DNA from: a virus
Lineage: Duplodnaviria > Caudoviricetes
Strand: one strand, 5' to 3'
DNA: 64,000 nucleotides
Virus record (IMG/VR): IMGVR_UViG_3300024331_000152
Coordinates: 1 to 64,000 of that record
In this document: in pieces, positions 10,374 through 48,305 of the stretch
Position numbering within the stretch: the first letter of the stretch is position 1
Layout of the letters: each line of letters opens with the position of its first letter
The notes under the pieces: model-generated
What the model saw: the letters and a program-made list of their open reading frames with translations, nothing else
The model's database searches: none
Told to the model about the DNA's origin: nothing
Position numbers and translations under genes: made by a program

Positions 10374-13300
10374 ATGGCACAGGCTCAAAATTACGGTCGC
10401 GAAAATAACGGCCAGCGCTTTACTCCGGGCGGGATCGATACGGTGCATCCGTACGATGCGCTGCCTCCGGGAAAATATGCATACCTGCAAAATGTGCGCG
10501 CCTACAAGCAGGATCAGATCATTGGTCGCTCGACAGTAGGAGATCCTGTCATCTCGGGATTGCCGACCCCGATTCATTCGATGGCGATCATCAATGACTC
10601 AACACCAGTTGGACCGGTAGCAGGGTATGTGCGCGTCATCGGCGCTGCCGGGTCAATGTATGTGGACTCAACGCTGGTAGCTTCCGGGTATAGCACAAAC
10701 CCCGTTTCTTTCTGCCCGTTTCGTCCTAATACATCAGTGCAACCGTGGATGTATATCGGCGACAGTTCAGAGGCCGTCATGCTGATCACGCAGTACCTGA
10801 TCGACAACGTAAATGTTTTCTTCCCGTGCTTTGGAGCAACCAAGGTTCGCAGCGATGGTCTGATCTATAAGACTGGTATCAAGGAACCGCAAACAGCTCC
10901 GATCATCTCGACCGAGAACATCACCACGACGGGATCTGATCAGCTTAATGCGAACACGATACCGTGGACGAATGTTAGCGGGACCAATCCCTCCTACAAC
11001 TACGGAATGGTGGACTCCCCGCCATCGATCACGAATCCCGTGATTATTGCTGGCGGAGGTCCTGAGCTTGTCCCGGGATCAACCATCGTTCTTACGGTTG
11101 CCAATACAGGAGGAGCAAGCGTAAACGGCGTTATCGGTGCTCCACCGACGCAATCAGGACCAACTTCGGCGAATTATCCGGGTAGCGCGTCTGGAATTTC
11201 TGGAACAGCAAACATTATCATCGGAGCGTTTACCGATGACTCTGGAAATGTGATCGAGCCGGGTGGATCTCTCCCGCTCGTGTTTTTTATAGGCGCTGGA
11301 ATCACCGTCACTGTTCCTGCTACGGCAAAACAACTTCAGATCGGCATCGATTCATCGTCGAATCATGTCGACGCAAACTGGTTTGGAAACAACACCGGGT
11401 TCTTTACTGTCACGTGGACCGTGACAACCAACGCCGTCTCGTCAAACATGTCCATCCTGAGCGATCTCACCGCCTTCTATTGGGGAGATTCTCCGACTTC
11501 GGGACCGGTATCGGCTTATATTTGGAAAAATCCTAGCGATCCCGGTGGCAGTGGTCCGGCGCGCACAGTAGACAGCGCGGTCGGCAGTACAGCAAATAAT
11601 TCATTCATCTTCGACGCAACCATCATTGCGGGAGTTCCGCAGCTCCCGGGCACAGGCATCCCAGCGAATCCGATGGAATGGTCAGTTCTTAATACGGATA
11701 GCACGATTGCAGGGACGATCCCCGTGTTCACTCCGGCGATCAAAGGTGTCGATGGAAACACCGCGTACCAAAATTTTAATTTCTGCCTGACAGGTCAGCT
11801 TTGGATTCCAGAAGCTGGAGACTATACCTTCGTAATTACAAACCACGATGACATGATCTGGGGAATCGGCGGCGAAGGCGTTAGCGTAGTCAGCGCAAGT
11901 GCCACGCATAACGGCGGTGGCATCAGTACAGCAAAATCGACTCTCGGCCAGACAATCTCGGTAGCTGAAGGTTACCCGCTTCTGCCGCGAGGCAATTATC
12001 CGAGTGGCTCTGGCGGCGACGTCACGGTCTCAACTGTTGTGGTGCGCTTTGCTAATTCTGGCGTCTATCCAATTGAAGTGGACTACGACTACTGGTACCA
12101 CAGCGGGCGTATTCTTTTGATTCAGGCGTCTCCGCAGCCGGGACAGCCGGTGGCAATCATTCCGCCTCTGCCTGCTGACGTACGCAGCAACGTATCGTAC
12201 CGCTATGTGTTTCGCAGCTCGGCAACCGGTGCCGTATCGAATCCTTCTCCTGCGTCAACACCGCAAACAACGCCAGTTCTCGCCGATACTGTAACACCTG
12301 AATATTCACCAGATCCTCAAGTTGATAAGGTGGACTACTTCCGGATCGACGCAGAGTCTGAGAACTATATTTACGTTGCGACAGGACCGAACACAAATCC
12401 GCCAACGCCGATCACAGATGAGTTGACCGATCTCGAAGTGTCGAATAATCCGCTTCTTGAATTCGACAACTACGAGCCGTTTCCGGTCACAGACCTTCCG
12501 CATAAGGGAGTCGTCGATGTGACTGGCGGTGTGATCACGTGGGTGTCTGGAGATCAGTTCAATACACGTTGGCTTCCGGGAACCGAGATCTTGATTGGAT
12601 ACCCAACCGCTCTTGCGTACACGTTCATTGCGCGGCCAACATCGTCAACGACAGTGACGATCCCGGGCGTACCTGACGGAACAAATCTTGAGTACGAAAT
12701 CCCGGAGCCGATCCTCGCCGCTCAGCCTCTTCCTTATCTTTGGGGACCAACCGATAACGCCGCCTACATGTTCGCGTGCGGCGACACGATGAATCCCGGA
12801 ACGCTCTACTTTACAAAAGGCAACAATCCGGACTCAGCTCCAGAGACAAACCAGATCCCTGTAACGAGTCCGTCAGAGCCTCTGCAAAATGGAGTGATCA
12901 CTGCCGGTGTCGGTATGGTATTTTCAACGGAAAGACGCTGGCTCATCTATCCGACATTTACGACTGCACTTGCTGACGTGGAAGGCGTCAGCGGCACGCC
13001 GTTCAATCTTGTTCTCGCGTCATCTGAACGCGGTTTGTATATTCCAACCTGTGTGTGCACCGATGGCGGTAATACCACTTTCTTTCGTGCCAAGGATGGA
13101 ATTTATGCATGCGAATTTGGCGGTCCAGATCAATATATCTGCAATGACATCTTCAACCTCTTTCCTCGTGAAGGATTCTTTCCGCAGCCGGTTACTGTTG
13201 CCGGAAATACAATCCATCCTCCCGACGATACGCGCTGGTTCTTCCAAAAACTTCGCTGGGGCCAGACTGTTCTGTACTACGATTATCAGGATGTTACCGG

Positions 13301-14444
13301 AAACTGGAGAACACTCGTCTACGACATCCTCGCTAAAGGCTGGGGAGTTGATGTGGGACAGCCTAATTTCAGCGCGCACACGTGGGAGACAGGTCCGAAC
13401 ACGGACACTGTTATGGTTGGGTGCGTTGATGGCACTGTGCGTCTCCTCGGCAACGGTAATCCTGAAGCGGTAGAATCCATCGTTATTCCTGTTTCCGTCA
13501 ATGCTGGCGAAGCGCGAGCTTTTAAACAGCTCGGCGATATTTTCATCAAAGCTATCGCTGTAGCCTCGAATCCGATCTTGGTTTCGGTTTATCAAAATCG
13601 CTACGCGACTCCAGTACCGAACATTTCACCAGCTTCTCTAACGGGTACCGGCGATCTAGAGCCTTACATCCTCAATCCAAATGATGGCGAAGTTCGTGAG
13701 TTGATCGACGTCGGAGTTTCGCTGACGTGGCCGACTCCCTCGCTAGATCTTATCGATCTATGGCAACCGTCCTTCCTGCCTCTGCCGGAGGATACGGAAG
13801 ACAGGCCAACCGACTGGGATAATGCCGGGATACAAGGAAACAAATTCATCCAAGGCATGCTGATCGAGGCCAACACATTTGGCCAGCCGAAGGCGATCAC
13901 TGTCCAGAGATCGGACGACGGCGCGATCTTCACACCAAACGAATCTCCGATCACCTTGAATCGCCAGCAGATTATTCCGCTGACCTTCACGCCGCCGTTC
14001 CTTGCTCACTCAGTGAAGTTGATCACGACCGATGGCGTGCCGTGGCGCTTGTGGGGTAATCCGCAGTGGGTCGCGAAGCCTTTCCCAGAAGGAACTGTGG
14101 AGTGGCAGACAGAGTTAAATTCTCTTGGTCAAAAAGGCTGGTTCCATATCCGGGAGATGAACATTCCACTACTCTCAAATAGCGACGTCACCTTGACGCT
14201 CGTGTTCGATCAATGGCCAGTCATCACGGTCACTATCCCGTCAACCGGAGGGTTGCAGATCAAGAATAAGTACACGATGCCACCAAACAAAACAAAGCTC
14301 GTGAGCTTCCGGCTGTCCTCGACGGTCCCCTTCTACGTATTTCAGGATGACGTAGAAGTGAAAATAAAATGGTGGGGAAGTACCGGTCCATACGAGATCA
14401 TCAAGCCGTATGGTGGCCCATCGCAGACAGGAGCTGAGCTGTGA
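10374..14444 (+). CDS. Large tail nozzle/stabilisation-type protein with inserted PA14-like domain
   Basis: 1356 aa, beta-rich; G.LWIPEAGDYTF....DD..GVYPIEVDY PA14-like pattern; precedes ejection genes. Confidence 0.55.
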   Translation: MAQAQNYGRENNGQRFTPGGIDTVHPYDALPPGKYAYLQNVRAYKQDQIIGRSTVGDPVISGLPTPIHSMAIINDSTPVGPVAGYVRVIGAAGSMYVDSTLVASGYSTNPVSFCPFRPNTSVQPWMYIGDSSEAVMLITQYLIDNVNVFFPCFGATKVRSDGLIYKTGIKEPQTAPIISTENITTTGSDQLNANTIPWTNVSGTNPSYNYGMVDSPPSITNPVIIAGGGPELVPGSTIVLTVANTGGASVNGVIGAPPTQSGPTSANYPGSASGISGTANIIIGAFTDDSGNVIEPGGSLPLVFFIGAGITVTVPATAKQLQIGIDSSSNHVDANWFGNNTGFFTVTWTVTTNAVSSNMSILSDLTAFYWGDSPTSGPVSAYIWKNPSDPGGSGPARTVDSAVGSTANNSFIFDATIIAGVPQLPGTGIPANPMEWSVLNTDSTIAGTIPVFTPAIKGVDGNTAYQNFNFCLTGQLWIPEAGDYTFVITNHDDMIWGIGGEGVSVVSASATHNGGGISTAKSTLGQTISVAEGYPLLPRGNYPSGSGGDVTVSTVVVRFANSGVYPIEVDYDYWYHSGRILLIQASPQPGQPVAIIPPLPADVRSNVSYRYVFRSSATGAVSNPSPASTPQTTPVLADTVTPEYSPDPQVDKVDYFRIDAESENYIYVATGPNTNPPTPITDELTDLEVSNNPLLEFDNYEPFPVTDLPHKGVVDVTGGVITWVSGDQFNTRWLPGTEILIGYPTALAYTFIARPTSSTTVTIPGVPDGTNLEYEIPEPILAAQPLPYLWGPTDNAAYMFACGDTMNPGTLYFTKGNNPDSAPETNQIPVTSPSEPLQNGVITAGVGMVFSTERRWLIYPTFTTALADVEGVSGTPFNLVLASSERGLYIPTCVCTDGGNTTFFRAKDGIYACEFGGPDQYICNDIFNLFPREGFFPQPVTVAGNTIHPPDDTRWFFQKLRWGQTVLYYDYQDVTGNWRTLVYDILAKGWGVDVGQPNFSAHTWETGPNTDTVMVGCVDGTVRLLGNGNPEAVESIVIPVSVNAGEARAFKQLGDIFIKAIAVASNPILVSVYQNRYATPVPNISPASLTGTGDLEPYILNPNDGEVRELIDVGVSLTWPTPSLDLIDLWQPSFLPLPEDTEDRPTDWDNAGIQGNKFIQGMLIEANTFGQPKAITVQRSDDGAIFTPNESPITLNRQQIIPLTFTPPFLAHSVKLITTDGVPWRLWGNPQWVAKPFPEGTVEWQTELNSLGQKGWFHIREMNIPLLSNSDVTLTLVFDQWPVITVTIPSTGGLQIKNKYTMPPNKTKLVSFRLSSTVPFYVFQDDVEVKIKWWGSTGPYEIIKPYGGPSQTGAEL

Positions 14445-45216: not shown

Positions 45217-45291
45217 GGCTGTGTAGCTCAACCAGAGCACCCGTCTTCAAAACGGTAGGTTGCAGGTATACAACCCCTGTCACAGCCACCA
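45217..45291 (+). tRNA. tRNA-like with UCA (opal) anticodon, atypical D/T loops
   Basis: CCGT-CTTCAAA-ACGG, acceptor GGCTGTG/CACAGCC, ACCA; T-loop TATACAACC non-canonical. Confidence 0.6.
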
Positions 45292-46199: not shown

Positions 46200-46365
46200 A
46201 TGGAAGTCAAACGGAAAGAAATTGAAACGCTGATCGAAAAGTCAGCTAAAAGCACACGATTCTGGAGACGCTATGCGTTTTTCTCAGGCGGCATGTAATT
46301 GTGCAAATGCCATACGCTGCTTGCTCGACGCAGAACTCGAACAAGCTTGTTCCGGCCCGAAGTAG
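46200..46365 (+). pseudogene. Small phage gene with apparent frameshift at GCTAAAAGC
   Basis: MEVKRKEIETLIEKSAK continues as AHDSGDAMRFSQAACNCANA.. only if one A is skipped. Confidence 0.5.
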
Positions 46366-46368
46366 ACC

Positions 46369-46708
46369 GGTGGTTGCACCCCGCCTCGCCGCGAGGCTAA
46401 GTCGCGGCAGAGATTTAAGCATGTAGAAGGCAACTAATCAGATTTCGGACGTGGGTTCGAATCCCACCGAGTCCACCAATCAGCTAACGCGCCGGGGCGA
46501 AACGCCTTGGTTCAACGAAAGTTCAGCTAAGAGTTAAAGCTGGTCCGTTGGCTGATTTGTGGGCTCGCCAAGGTTTCGACGGGATCAGAAGACGTTGTGC
46601 AGTTCATGCCGAGTGCTGTGGCCTGCGTTAAGGGACACGGAAAAAACAAATGCAGATGCTTCGGCACTGCCGATGGCAGCCTAAAAACTGACGTCTGAGG
46701 GTGGCCGC
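46369..46708 (+). ncRNA. ssrA: Circularly permuted (two-piece) tmRNA
   Basis: T-arm plus CGAGTCC-ACCA ends 46478; hairpin-closed spacer; GGGCTCG..TTCGAC starts 46561 (G3:U70); tag ORF 46652-46684 ADASALPMAA-stop. Confidence 0.9.
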
Positions 46709-46745
46709 AATACTCATCAAAGAACCATGCGGCACAAATACGCTA

Positions 46746-47150
46746 ATGCCTTACAAAGACAAAATTAAGCGTGCAGAGTATTGGAGGAATTATGTAATTG
46801 CCAACCCTCACGTCAAAACCAGAACTAAGACCGACAGGAAGCGCGAGAACGGCGAGGGCTGGGAGATTAAGAACCGCATCCCCTTCAAGATCTCGTGCTG
46901 CGATTGTGGTCTCGTCCATAATCTGGTTATCGTAGCTCCGAATACGAGAAAGGGCGCAGTCCTTGGCATCGCTGCGGAACGAAACGAGCGCGCAACCGGA
47001 CAGAAGCGCAGACATTTAGTGACGAACAAGCCAGAGACGCCTGAGGAGGCGGCGCGCAGACTAGGCGTGTCGAAGAAACGTCTCGAATCAATTCGCGAAA
47101 TTATGTCGCGCCCTGTGTTACGCTCAAAGCGAAAACACTTGAATCCCTAA
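46746..47150 (+). CDS. Hypothetical protein (CCDCGLVH motif)
   Basis: MPYKD start, ISCCDCGLVH. Confidence 0.6.
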   Translation: MPYKDKIKRAEYWRNYVIANPHVKTRTKTDRKRENGEGWEIKNRIPFKISCCDCGLVHNLVIVAPNTRKGAVLGIAAERNERATGQKRRHLVTNKPETPEEAARRLGVSKKRLESIREIMSRPVLRSKRKHLNP

Positions 47151-47187
47151 GGCGTTCAGACCGCGAATCTGAGCGTCTCTTTTTTTC

Positions 47188-47216
47188 TTGACAACAGGCG
47201 CAGAGTTTCGTACCTT
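47188..47216 (+). promoter_or_regulatory. Sigma70 promoter, leaderless transcript
   Basis: TTGACA-17 nt-TACCTT, 6 nt before ATG at 47223. Confidence 0.75.
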
Positions 47217-47222
47217 CTGTTC

Positions 47223-47711
47223 ATGCATTGAATCGCCAACACGCATTCATACGTTTTCGTCCGGTACGATCTCTCCCTCGCACAATCTGTAATCCAGTCG
47301 AGCCATGCTACCCATTCGATGGCTAATGGGCTCTCCCAGAGCCCTGAAGTTCCGCATATCGTTCTGATCGGCGTTCCAGACGTCAAGGCCCTTGAACGGG
47401 TCATTCAAAAACTCCGCGACAATCACATTGAATTTGCTGCCTTCGATGAGCCTGACGATAATCTCGGCTTGACGGCGGTCGCTACTGTTCCTCTCAACGA
47501 AGAGCAGAGACTTGTGTTCCAGAACTACAAGATCTGGACTGAAGAAGAATACTTTTACACGCGCGTAGCTCAGTGGTCAGAGCACTCCGGGAGGTTGACG
47601 GAGAGGTCGGCTGTTCGAATCGGTCCGCGCGTACCATGGGCGGTTCATTCGGTGATGTATCCGGTTCGAATCCGGTATCGCCCACCATGCGCGGTTAGCT
47701 CGACTATGTAG
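47223..47711 (+). CDS. Pth2-like peptidyl-tRNA hydrolase with in-frame UGA at codon 3
   Basis: ATG CAT TGA, then in frame YVFVRYDLSLAQSVIQSSHA...IVLIGV....L.......F.EPD...GLTAVA. Confidence 0.75.
47559..47636 (+). tRNA. tRNA-like element with 9-nt anticodon loop (GGAGGTTGA)
   Basis: Canonical D and T arms, ACGCGCG/CGCGCGT-ACCA; no readable anticodon. Confidence 0.7.
47638..47687 (+). ncRNA. Mini tRNA-like element (acceptor plus T arm only)
   Basis: GGGCGGT/ATCGCCC-ACCA, CCGG-TTCGAAT-CCGG. Confidence 0.65.
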
Positions 47712-47737
47712 AGGGGAAGATCCTCGCCCGCGCTCCA
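47689..47737 (+). ncRNA. Mini tRNA-like element
   Basis: GCGCGG/CCGCGC-TCCA, GAGG-GGAAGAT-CCTC. Confidence 0.5.
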
Positions 47738-47743
47738 ATTCGA

Positions 47744-47819
47744 GCGCTCGTGGCTCAGCGGCAGAGCGCCGGTCTTCAAAACCGGGTCAGCGTGGGTTCG
47801 AACCTCACCGAGCGCTCCA
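47744..47819 (+). tRNA. Opal suppressor tRNA (UCA), Gly-like acceptor identity
   Basis: CCGGT-CTTCAAA-ACCGG, canonical cloverleaf, G1:C72 C2:G71 G3:C70 U73. Confidence 0.85.
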
Positions 47820-47926
47820 CTGAAATTTGAGGTAATATATTTCTGCGCGCCGAGCGCGAGACCTGATCAGATCCGTCTCAACGGGCTGGCACGATGTCCA
47901 GCGCATCTAGCAAAAGGAGAATCAAG

Positions 47927-48277
47927 ATGCGTACTCGTTGCAAGTTCCGTGTTGTTGGAATTGAAGATGTTGATCACCAGATCCAGAAAAGGATCTACAA
48001 AGATCAGGTAAGCGCTGAGGAATATGCGGCAATCGAGAGTTCGGAATGGCCAGACCGTAATGGATTTGGGGATATCAGAATGTACAAACTCGTTGGCCTC
48101 GGCCATGCCCAGAACATCCGGCTCGCCGCTCAGTATGATCCATCAATCCCCGAAGATCAGCGCTTTATGGAAGCAACGCCGACTGGAGAGTTGAAGTTTT
48201 ACGTCAGCAACCCAGCAGTGATCGGCGGCTTTCAGATCGGCAAAAATTACTACATTGATCTGATACCATGTGGCTAG
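47927..48277 (+). CDS. Hypothetical phage protein
   Basis: SD AAGGAG; RCKF.V ... E...F..ATP.G.L...V.NP.....F..GK.YYID. Confidence 0.75.
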   Translation: MRTRCKFRVVGIEDVDHQIQKRIYKDQVSAEEYAAIESSEWPDRNGFGDIRMYKLVGLGHAQNIRLAAQYDPSIPEDQRFMEATPTGELKFYVSNPAVIGGFQIGKNYYIDLIPCG

Positions 48278-48305
48278 CAGACCAGTGCCCGACCCTACAC
48301 AGGTC

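What the first reader, a model, noticed from the sequence alone, without database searches (positions are those of the whole stretch)
47188..47819. Pth2-like gene gated by an in-frame UGA at codon 3, co-transcribed with a UGA-reading tRNA
A consensus promoter (TTGACA-17-TACCTT) puts the start site at ATG CAT TGA. In the same frame, after the stop, comes the conserved Pth2-like N-terminus (YVFVRYDLS..Q...QSSHA), with no ATG/GTG/TTG until after it. Full-length enzyme therefore needs UGA read-through or an ATC start. The same transcript ends in a canonical UCA-anticodon tRNA, extending the theme that the first codons match the downstream tRNA. Inference: a sensor of RF2/termination failure or a suppressor-dependent switch. 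Without read-through, AUG-CAU-UGA resembles lambda bar minigenes, which generate the peptidyl-tRNA substrate of Pth.
Basis: partly seen in the sequence, partly recalled or inferred. Interest (0 to 1): 0.85.

Follow-up and report, generated by a model that had tools for sequence, protein, structure and literature searches.

The report
Stop-codon-gated phage tRNA-hydrolase gene
A phage gene for a small Pth2-type tRNA-ester hydrolase has a UGA stop as its third codon and sits beside the phage's own UGA-reading tRNA, and dozens of related phages, several of them lab-grown, share the design with UAG and a UAG-reading tRNA. The enzyme is therefore probably made only when that tRNA overrides the stop.

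Summary
ATG CAT TGA (47223-47231) is in frame with a 109-codon Pth2-fold domain (47232-47558). No ATG, GTG or TTG occurs before residue 30, although the first 30 residues hold invariant R11, D13 and H25.

About 30 distinct related loci, plus cultured phages GAP32, fHe-Yen9-03, ME3, Arash and RsoM2USA, share the layout. A ribosome-binding site or a TTGACA-N17-hexamer-N6/7 promoter precedes the ATG. Then come 1-12 sense codons, an in-frame stop, and 6-14 codons before the conserved first strand.

The stop is TAG in every relative, and a tRNA(CUA) was found wherever enough DNA was available, with one exception. This window has TGA and two tRNA(UCA) genes. One of them (47744-47819) is most similar to the relatives' CUA suppressors.

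The codon after the stop (GGG, GTT, GCT, ACA and others) is usually not a start codon. Both this genome and a TAG-type relative use the standard code, and the gating codon ends about a third of their long ORFs.

Best reading: a read-through gate that depends on the suppressor tRNA (0.72). Nothing is experimental. I found no published description. This scan has noted the same module before on other DNA with UAG and UAA; this is a UGA version.

The parts
47150..47187 (+). Terminator-like hairpin plus T-run that closes the upstream unit
   Evidence: 11-pair stem at 47150-47178 followed by CTTTTTTTCT
47188..47216 (+). Promoter-like element: -35 TTGACA (47188-93), 17-nt spacer, -10-like TACCTT (47211-16). 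It places the transcript start at or next to the A of ATG 47223, which implies a leaderless mRNA.
   Evidence: Sequence. CTTGACAA, the last T of the hexamer and CATG are invariant at fixed spacing in window, L001, L012, L016, L019 and L070. Not called by the consensus scan, because the -10 matches only 3 of 6.
47223..47231 (+). Two-codon leader and gate: ATG CAT TGA. The UGA at 47229-47231 is the gate.
   Evidence: The same layout with TAG occurs in about 30 relatives and 5 cultured phages.
47232..47558 (+). Pth2-fold domain, 109 codons, in frame with the leader. The conserved end (W102) is at 47535-47537.
   Evidence: AlphaFold2 pLDDT 90.8. Foldseek best matches are Pth2 structures, TM 0.70-0.78, probability 1.00. 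Pfam PTH2 matches 24 of 41 family members. The family profile hits a PDB peptidyl-tRNA hydrolase at E 2.5e-4.
47559..47711 (+). Stop-less tail of the same frame, running through tRNA-like genes to TAG at 47709-47711
   Evidence: Close relatives also run into the next tRNA.
47559..47636 (+). Aberrant tRNA-like gene with a 9-nt anticodon loop, overlapped by the ORF tail
   Evidence: ARAGORN calls it 'Thr(ggt)'. Rfam tRNA scores 51 bits, with 9 nt where the model has a 7-nt loop.
47637..47740 (+). Two elements of about 50 nt that look like tRNA minihelices (acceptor stem plus one arm, ending in CCA)
   Evidence: Read by eye. No tool called them. L001 has a similar element after its first tRNA.
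47744..47819 (+). tRNA with anticodon UCA, the proposed reader of the gate. It has a 7-bp acceptor stem, U73 and an encoded CCA.
   Evidence: Its closest relatives among all tRNAs compared are the CUA suppressors of related phages (L021, L023, L034).
45217..45291 (+). Second tRNA with anticodon loop CUUCAAA (UCA) and an unusual enlarged T loop
   Evidence: Rfam tRNA 49.1 bits. Not called by ARAGORN.
46386..46775 (+). Context: phage-encoded permuted tmRNA, tag ADASALPMAA, upstream in the same orientation
   Evidence: A tmRNA also lies upstream of the gene in L001, L004, L013 and L015.

Best explanation
This is a read-through gate that depends on the phage's own suppressor tRNA.

Proposed steps:
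1. Ribosomes start at AUG 47223, probably the 5' end of a leaderless mRNA.
2. They read CAU and then meet UGA.
3. If release factor 2 wins, only fMet-His is made.
4. If the phage's tRNA(UCA) wins, translation continues in frame into a Pth2-fold protein.

The protein is therefore made only while, and in proportion as, the phage's stop-reading tRNA is active.

Shown:
- the layout, and its conservation over about 30 lineages
- initiation signals in front of the leader ATG
- the absence of a start codon after the stop in most lineages
- the match between stop type and anticodon
- the Pth2 fold
- use of the standard code by the genome as a whole

Inferred:
- that the tRNA is made, charged and decodes UGA
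- that the early position favours the tRNA over the release factor, because very short peptidyl-tRNAs are poor release substrates (recalled from the minigene literature)
- the purpose, which is a guess from context: to tie a tRNA-ester hydrolase acting in ribosome or tRNA rescue, alongside the phage tmRNA, to the level of stop-codon suppression
For: 1. Conserved layout. An ATG is followed by 1-12 sense codons, an in-frame stop, and 6-14 codons before the conserved YxFVRxDL strand. This occurs in about 30 distinct viral and metagenomic loci. It also occurs in Cronobacter phage GAP32, Yersinia phage fHe-Yen9-03, Acinetobacter phage ME3, Salmonella phage Arash, Ralstonia phage RsoM2USA and the 595-kb uncultured phage LR756511.1. 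No in-frame stop occurs anywhere else in the domain in any of them.

2. The leader ATG carries initiation signals. These are AGGAG-type sites 6-10 nt upstream, or TTGACA-N17-hexamer-N6/7-ATG.

3. The codon after the stop is GGG, GTT, GTA, GTC, GCT, ACA, TCA, CCA, AAT, AAC, ATT, ATC or CTG in most lineages. Most of these are not start codons.

4. The N-terminal 30 residues are under protein-level constraint (R11, D13 and H25 invariant, Q22 nearly so) and form strand 1 and helix 1 of the fold.

5. Stop type matches anticodon.
- Every TAG-gated locus with a suppressor tRNA in reach has CUA, often as the only tRNA on the contig.
- The window has TGA, two UCA tRNAs and no CUA.
- tRNA 47744-47819 is most similar to the relatives' CUA suppressors.
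- The window sits inside a clade of TAG-gated genes, so stop and anticodon changed together.

6. Two ungated relatives with long contigs (G004, and G005, which is complete) have no suppressor tRNA.

7. This is not genome-wide recoding.
- G000 is 90% coding under table 11, and TGA ends 49 of 147 long ORFs.
- The TAG-type relative G003 is 97.8% coding over 60 kb, and TAG ends 13 of 38 long ORFs.
- No other clear gate exists in G000.

8. There is no significant RNA structure after the UGA (z = 0.88), so no structure-driven read-through signal is evident.
Against: - Nothing is experimental. Expression, charging and decoding by the tRNA are all inferred.
- TGA ends about a third of this phage's ORFs with no protective tandem stops. 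An efficient suppressor should therefore be costly, so suppression must be weak or dependent on context.
- L001 (contig 105 kb, 89% complete) keeps ATG CAT TAG, but none of its 30 tRNAs has CUA.
- In L016 and L070 the codon after the stop is ATG. There the protein could arise by restart without read-through.
- Ungated genes also sit next to suppressor tRNAs (L037-39, L040 with UCA, L043). The link between gene and tRNA therefore does not depend on the gate.
- My own sample holds only one TAG-to-TGA switch.
- The Lys of the Pth2 G-K-x-K motif aligns with Gln in this family, so the enzyme activity is uncertain.
- The TGA could not be confirmed in reads.
Confidence: 0.72

Rival explanations
1. 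Leader peptide plus restart. ATG CAT TGA is a real two-codon upstream ORF. The terminating ribosome restarts at the next codon (ATC here), so the suppressor tRNA is not needed.
For: ATC is a rare bacterial start codon. In L016 and L070 the codon after the stop is ATG. In some others it is ATT, ATC or CTG.
Against: In most lineages the next codon is GGG, GTT, GTA, GTC, GCT, ACA, TCA, CCA, AAT or AAC, and no canonical start follows before the conserved strand. This reading does not explain why the stop is TAG wherever the phage has tRNA(CUA) and TGA where it has tRNA(UCA), and was not TAA in my sample.
Confidence: 0.1
2. Release-factor sensor without a dedicated tRNA. The early UGA is read through by near-cognate host tRNAs when RF2 is scarce or blocked, as in prfB autoregulation. 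The nearby UCA tRNA serves other purposes.
For: Only RF-specific stops were seen in my sample: UGA (RF2) here and UAG (RF1) in relatives, with no UAA. L001 keeps the gate with no CUA tRNA found. UGA followed by A is recalled to be a leaky context.
Against: Stop type and anticodon match in every locus where a suppressor tRNA was seen. Earlier notes of this scan report UAA gates with UAA-reading tRNAs (not tested here), which an RF-specific sensor would not predict. The two readings are not exclusive, because read-through reflects the ratio of tRNA to release factor.
Confidence: 0.08
3. General stop-codon reassignment. The phage reads TGA as an amino acid throughout (code 4 or 25), so the TGA at codon 3 is an ordinary sense codon.
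For: The phage has two UCA tRNAs, and no tRNA-Trp(CCA) among the 36 tRNAs called in the window. Recoded phages with suppressor tRNAs are known (bioRxiv 10.1101/2021.08.26.457843).
Against: Coding density is 90% under table 11, and TGA ends 75 of 207 ORFs. Adjacent same-frame ORF pairs split by a single stop are not enriched for TGA (4, against 11 for TAG and 8 for TAA). The stop occurs only at the 5' end of this gene and never inside the domain, in any lineage. The TAG-type relative G003 is 97.8% coding in the standard code.
Confidence: 0.04
4. Broken gene or assembly error. The TGA is a nonsense mutation or a miscalled base, and the gene is dead or starts at Met30.
For: The base could not be checked in reads. 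Gene callers start the protein at Met30 (P0001).
Against: The same early stop occurs in about 30 lineages and in finished genomes of cultured phages. The sequence after the stop is conserved at protein level, with synonymous differences. Met30 is not conserved in the wider family. A protein starting there would lack strand 1 and helix 1.
Confidence: 0.03

Closest known systems
Stop-codon-recoded phages with phage-encoded suppressor tRNAs (TAG read as Gln, TGA as Trp; Borges et al., bioRxiv 10.1101/2021.08.26.457843)
   Same: A phage-borne tRNA reads a stop codon, so genes with in-frame stops are translated only once the tRNA is present. The authors propose this as a timing device.
   Different: In those phages 26-71% of genes carry in-frame stops and the codon is depleted as a terminator. 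Here the genome uses the standard code, the codon ends a third of the ORFs, and a single gene carries a single stop at a fixed place just after the start. That paper does not mention a hydrolase.
prfB (RF2) autoregulation through an early in-frame UGA
   Same: An early in-frame stop in a translation-factor gene makes its own synthesis depend on how well that stop is recognised (from my own knowledge).
   Different: prfB passes the stop by a +1 frameshift with a Shine-Dalgarno stimulator. Here the frame continues unchanged, no stimulator structure is seen, and a matching tRNA is encoded nearby.
Lambda bar minigenes (AUG AUA UAA) and Pth
   Same: The window, L001, L012, L013, L015 and others have a two-codon ORF, AUG-NNN-stop. 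Such minigenes release peptidyl-tRNA, the substrate of peptidyl-tRNA hydrolase (from my own knowledge).
   Different: Here the stop is followed in frame by a conserved protein. In relatives the leader is 2-13 codons long, so minimal length is not a defining trait. Toxicity or drop-off was not testable.
PTH2 genes of jumbo phages (Iyer et al. 2021, PMC7824862)
   Same: The same kind of gene, an archaeo-eukaryotic type peptidyl-tRNA hydrolase in large phages, proposed to act in ribosome rescue.
   Different: That survey says nothing of an in-frame stop or of suppressor tRNAs ('suppressor' and 'stop codon' each occur 0 times).
Orphan suppressor tRNAs of standard-code phages (XacN1, PMC5852040; Summit, PMC9022506)
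   Same: These are standard-code phages that carry tRNA(CUA).
   Different: Those papers state that no target gene could be identified. The gate described here is a candidate target. XacN1's own homolog is fused to an upstream ORF and is ungated.

Membership tests
PTH2 peptidyl-tRNA hydrolase (Pfam PF01981) | Pth2 alpha/beta fold | tested here: met
   AlphaFold2 model, pLDDT 90.8 and pTM 0.85. The top Foldseek matches are 2zv3, 3erj, 1q7s (Bit1), 1wn2, 1xty and 1rlk, with TM 0.70-0.78 and probability 1.00.
PTH2 peptidyl-tRNA hydrolase (Pfam PF01981) | Sequence match to the Pfam model above its curated cut-off | tested here: inconclusive
   The window's protein has no PF01981 match at E <= 0.1. 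24 of 41 family members match at E <= 1, the best at 3.6e-7. The family profile hits PDB peptidyl-tRNA hydrolases 24bt_A (E 2.5e-4) and 2zv3_A (E 0.06).
PTH2 peptidyl-tRNA hydrolase (Pfam PF01981) | Active-site residues. I recall Lys18, Asp86 and Thr90 of the Sulfolobus enzyme from memory; I did not verify them in a paper here. | tested here: inconclusive
   The R-x-D, Q..HA and D...G-x-T motifs are conserved (R11, D13, Q22, H25, D75, G79, T81). The Lys of the G-K-x-K stretch aligns with Gln in this family (alignment).
PTH2 peptidyl-tRNA hydrolase (Pfam PF01981) | Hydrolysis of peptidyl-tRNA or N-acyl-aminoacyl-tRNA | not testable with these tools
   Needs an enzyme assay or complementation of an E. 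coli pth(ts) strain.
Alternatively coded (stop-recoded) phages | Phage-encoded suppressor tRNA that matches the in-frame stop | tested here: met
   tRNA(UCA) at 47744-47819 and 45217-45291. The gate is TGA.
Alternatively coded (stop-recoded) phages | Many genes with in-frame copies of the reassigned stop, and that codon avoided as a terminator | tested here: not met
   90% coding under table 11. TGA ends 75 of 207 ORFs and 49 of 147 long ones. Only one clear gated gene.
Selenocysteine tRNA / Sec decoding | tRNA-Sec architecture: long variable arm and an extended acceptor/T helix (recalled) | tested here: not met
   ARAGORN's 'SeC' label follows from the anticodon alone. The gene is 76 nt with a 7-bp acceptor stem and a short variable region (alignment to the Rfam tRNA model). 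No other Sec feature was looked for.
Lambda bar-type minigene | A free-standing two-codon ORF whose effect is release of peptidyl-tRNA | tested here: inconclusive
   The shape is met here (ATG CAT TGA). However, the ORF is continued in frame by a conserved protein, and leaders in relatives are 2-13 codons long. Drop-off is not testable.

The most novel reading that the evidence does not exclude
The suppressor tRNA and the gated Pth2-like gene form a self-contained sensor and effector pair in standard-code phages. The stop is placed within the first few codons because release factors act poorly on very short peptidyl-tRNAs. A weak suppressor can therefore open this gate without much read-through of ordinary gene ends. 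The hydrolase, together with the phage tmRNA, then clears the stalled or dropped-off products that suppression causes. The stop-less 3' end, which runs into a tRNA gene, would add a second tmRNA-dependent layer of control.
Probability: 0.2. Interest if true: 0.9.

Novelty: new variant of a known kind. Interest (0 to 1): 0.8.

Why it matters
Standard-code phages often carry suppressor tRNAs, and published genome papers say they could not find what these tRNAs are for (XacN1, Summit). This gate offers a concrete, conserved target gene.

It would also be a natural translational switch of one codon and one tRNA. It occurs in phages that can be grown in the laboratory on Cronobacter, Yersinia, Acinetobacter, Salmonella and Ralstonia, so it can be tested directly.

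It bears on how stop-codon reassignment begins in phages, namely with a suppressor tRNA plus a single dependent gene in an otherwise standard genome.

It also exposes a recurrent annotation error. The gene is truncated in the GAP32 and Arash records and missing from the fHe-Yen9-03 and RsoM2USA records. The tRNA that ARAGORN reads as CUA is labelled Phe in the Arash record.

Tried and rejected
- Nucleotide search of the phage collection with 46300-48300 found nothing.
- Pfam on the single window protein gave no PTH2 hit. Only the family as a whole and the fold showed the relation.
- DNA for the closest homolog, P0002 (71% identity), could not be fetched, so its start region is unknown.
- I looked in L001 for a hidden CUA tRNA. 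Only a weak, odd tRNA-like match turned up at L001:3714-3778 (27 bits), and it gave no clear CUA anticodon.
- I looked for other gated genes in G000 in two ways and for same-frame ORF pairs split by TGA. Nothing convincing appeared.
- I looked for protective tandem stops after TGA-ended genes and found none.
- Folding the RNA after the UGA to look for a read-through stimulator gave z = 0.88, so there is none.
- A paper search meant to verify the Pth2 catalytic residues returned a Pth1 paper that did not help.
- (profile against its own member) was uninformative.
- The amino acid carried by tRNA(UCA) stays open. G1-C72, C2-G71, G3-C70, U73 and C35 fit the Gly identity set that I recall. However, the phage's Thr tRNAs have similar acceptor ends, and the CUA orthologues have A73.

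Full report
**What is in the window.**

The window is the first 64 kb of a 142.8-kb single-contig virus record. It has 52.5% G+C, long structural-type ORFs, 36 ARAGORN tRNA genes and a permuted tmRNA.

At the reported place the sequence reads as follows:
- TTGACA at 47188-93
- a 17-nt spacer
- TACCTT at 47211-16
- 6 nt
- ATG CAT TGA at 47223-31
- ATC GCC AAC ACG CAT TCA TAC GTT TTC GTC CGG TAC GAT ...

The translation after the stop is IANTHSYVFVRYDLSLAQSVIQSSHA.... The first canonical start in that frame is the ATG at 47319. A hairpin with a T-run at 47150-47187 closes the upstream unit, and no terminator is predicted further on. The tRNA at 47744-47819 has anticodon UCA and ordinary tRNA architecture.

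**The protein.**

The single sequence gives no Pfam PTH2 hit, but it has homologs. I built a 41-member alignment from translated loci.
- R11, D13, H25, P74, D75 and G79 are invariant. Q22, E73, T81, T85 and P87 are nearly so.
- 24 of the 41 members match Pfam PTH2, the best at 3.6e-7.
- The family profile hits PDB peptidyl-tRNA hydrolases (24bt_A at E 2.5e-4).
- The AlphaFold2 model has pLDDT 90.8. Its best structural matches are archaeal Pth2 enzymes and human Bit1, with TM 0.70-0.78 and probability 1.00.

'Pth2-like' is therefore right as to fold and distant family. The Lys of the Pth2 G-K-x-K stretch aligns with Gln, so I do not claim the activity. The family is large: 1,414 clusters at E <= 1e-10 in the 50%-identity library.

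**The early stop is conserved.**

I fetched 15 viral and 48 metagenomic loci that encode relatives and read the codons in front of the conserved first strand. About 30 distinct genes share one layout: an ATG, then 1-12 sense codons, then an in-frame stop, then 6-14 codons, then YxFVRxDL.

Examples:
- L001: ATG CAT TAG GGG
- L004: ATG CTC TAG GTT
- L012: ATG TCA TAG ATT
- L013: ATG ACC TAG CTG
- L015: ATG CAC TAG GTA
- L041: ATG CCT GAA ACG TAG GCT
- L002: ATG CGT AAA GCA ATC GGC GAT CTG TAG GTT

About ten genes have a plain ATG and no stop. No member has a stop elsewhere in the domain.

The leader ATG is preceded by one of two signals:
- an AGGAG-type site 6-10 nt upstream, or
- in the window's own clade, TTGACA-N17-hexamer-N6/7. 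In an alignment of six lineages, CTTGACAA, the last T of the hexamer and CATG are invariant while the rest varies. That geometry puts the transcript start at the ATG, which is an inferred leaderless mRNA.

Cultured phages show the same layout:

| Phage | Gate |
|---|---|
| GAP32 | ATG GCA CAA TAG |
| fHe-Yen9-03 | ATG TCT CAC TAG |
| ME3 | ATG ACT TAG |
| Arash | ATG CTG TAG |
| RsoM2USA | ATG TTG TAG |
| LR756511.1 (595 kb, uncultured) | AGGAGA-N6-ATG ACT CAC TAG |

In their GenBank records the gene is truncated (GAP32_397, Arash gp84c) or absent.

**Stop codon and suppressor tRNA go together.**

- ARAGORN finds tRNA(CUA) in the flanks of most TAG-gated loci that have enough DNA, often as the only tRNA present.
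- For L013 and L015 it lies further off in the same contig.
- All five gated cultured phages have one.
- Two ungated relatives on long contigs, one of them complete, have none.
- The window has TGA and two UCA tRNAs, at 47744-47819 and 45217-45291, and no CUA.
- Among all tRNAs compared, the nearest relatives of the first UCA tRNA are the CUA suppressors of L021, L023 and L034.
- On the protein tree the window sits inside a clade of TAG-gated genes. The gate is found on both halves of the tree, and the plain forms are nested among gated ones.

The simplest account is that in this lineage the anticodon and the gate codon changed together.

There are exceptions and limits:
- L001 keeps TAG, but none of its 30 tRNAs has CUA (contig 89% complete).
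- Some ungated genes also lie next to suppressor tRNAs (L037-39, L040, L043).
- My sample holds only this one switch to TGA.

**Not a recoded genome.**

- Under table 11 the genome is 90% coding. TGA ends 75 of 207 ORFs, and 49 of the 147 ORFs of 100 aa or more.
- Same-frame neighbouring ORFs split by one stop are not enriched for TGA.
- Two scans found no other convincing gated gene.
- The TAG-type relative G003 is 97.8% coding over 60 kb, and TAG ends 13 of 38 long ORFs.

These are therefore standard-code phages with a suppressor tRNA and one dependent gene. That differs from the recoded phages of Borges et al., where 26-71% of genes carry in-frame stops.

**Mechanism.**

The best-supported reading is read-through of the early stop by the phage's suppressor tRNA, in competition with the release factor.

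Restart at the next codon is unlikely as a general rule, because that codon is mostly not a start codon. It may contribute where the codon is ATG (L016, L070). No RNA structure follows the UGA.

Two points are inference only:
- why the stop sits so early
- what the coupling is for

The neighbourhood (tmRNA upstream, tRNA arrays around) and the published proposal that phage PTH2 acts in ribosome rescue (PMC7824862) suggest a purpose: the hydrolase is tied to the level of suppression.

The cost argument stands against a strong suppressor. TGA-ended genes have no protective second stop.

**Literature and earlier notes.**

I found no paper that links PTH2, phages and suppressor tRNAs. The XacN1 and Summit papers state that targets of their suppressor tRNAs were not identified.

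Earlier notes of this scan describe the same module on other genomes with UAG, and in two cases with UAA and a UAA-reading tRNA. I did not test the UAA cases. A later check recorded there raised the same cost objection that I raise. The present window is a UGA version.

**Verdict.**

This is a new variant of a known kind: suppressor-tRNA-dependent translation in phages, here reduced to one gene and one codon in a standard-code genome. It is untested experimentally but directly testable in cultured phages.

Noticed in passing
window 47535-47711: The Pth2-like frame has no stop codon before the next tRNA-like gene. It runs 51 codons through 47559-47711. Close relatives do the same (L001, L016, L018, L019, L028, L045, L070, and many database proteins whose tails read like translated tRNA, such as ..GFES..). 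If the tRNA is cut out, the mRNA would lack a stop, and a phage tmRNA lies just upstream.
   Followed up: partly
window 47559-47636 and 47637-47740: The first is a tRNA-like gene with a 9-nt anticodon loop (GGAGGTTGA). It is followed by two elements of about 50 nt that look like an acceptor stem plus one arm and end in CCA. L001 has a similar mini-element after its first tRNA (L001:3405-3455).
   Followed up: partly
window 45217-45291: A second UCA-anticodon tRNA with a short D loop and an enlarged T loop. Rfam finds it (49 bits) but ARAGORN does not. No tRNA-Trp(CCA) was called in the window.
   Followed up: partly
G000 whole genome, e.g. 10374-14444, 81578-82402, 92907-93377, 99562-100152: TGA-ended ORFs more often have a long (30 codons or more) open extension lying in otherwise uncovered DNA: 11 of 75, against 5 of 62 for TAG and 5 of 70 for TAA. 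These may be read-through extensions, or the difference may be chance.
   Followed up: no
L010:5299-5378, L023:7146-7225, L002:3519-3594, L019 near 544: Relatives carry tRNAs with 8-nt anticodon loops next to their CUA suppressors. ARAGORN gives four-base anticodons 'ctag' and 'gcaa'. They may be quadruplet decoders or processing elements.
   Followed up: no
L001:3690-4080: A motif of the form G-CTGACTG-N5-GCTTACATG is repeated four times between tRNA-like pieces. It looks like a repeated phage promoter or processing signal.
   Followed up: no
L075 (GAP32), L076 (fHe-Yen9-03), L078 (Arash), L079 (RsoM2USA): Public annotations miss or truncate the gated gene. In the Arash record, the tRNA that ARAGORN reads as CUA is labelled tRNA-Phe.
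   Followed up: yes
L080 (XacN1), L089 (Stenotrophomonas phage CM1): In these phages the Pth2-like domain is the C-terminal part of a longer ORF (XacN1 ORF364, 279 aa), with no early stop. This is a fused, ungated form.
   Followed up: partly
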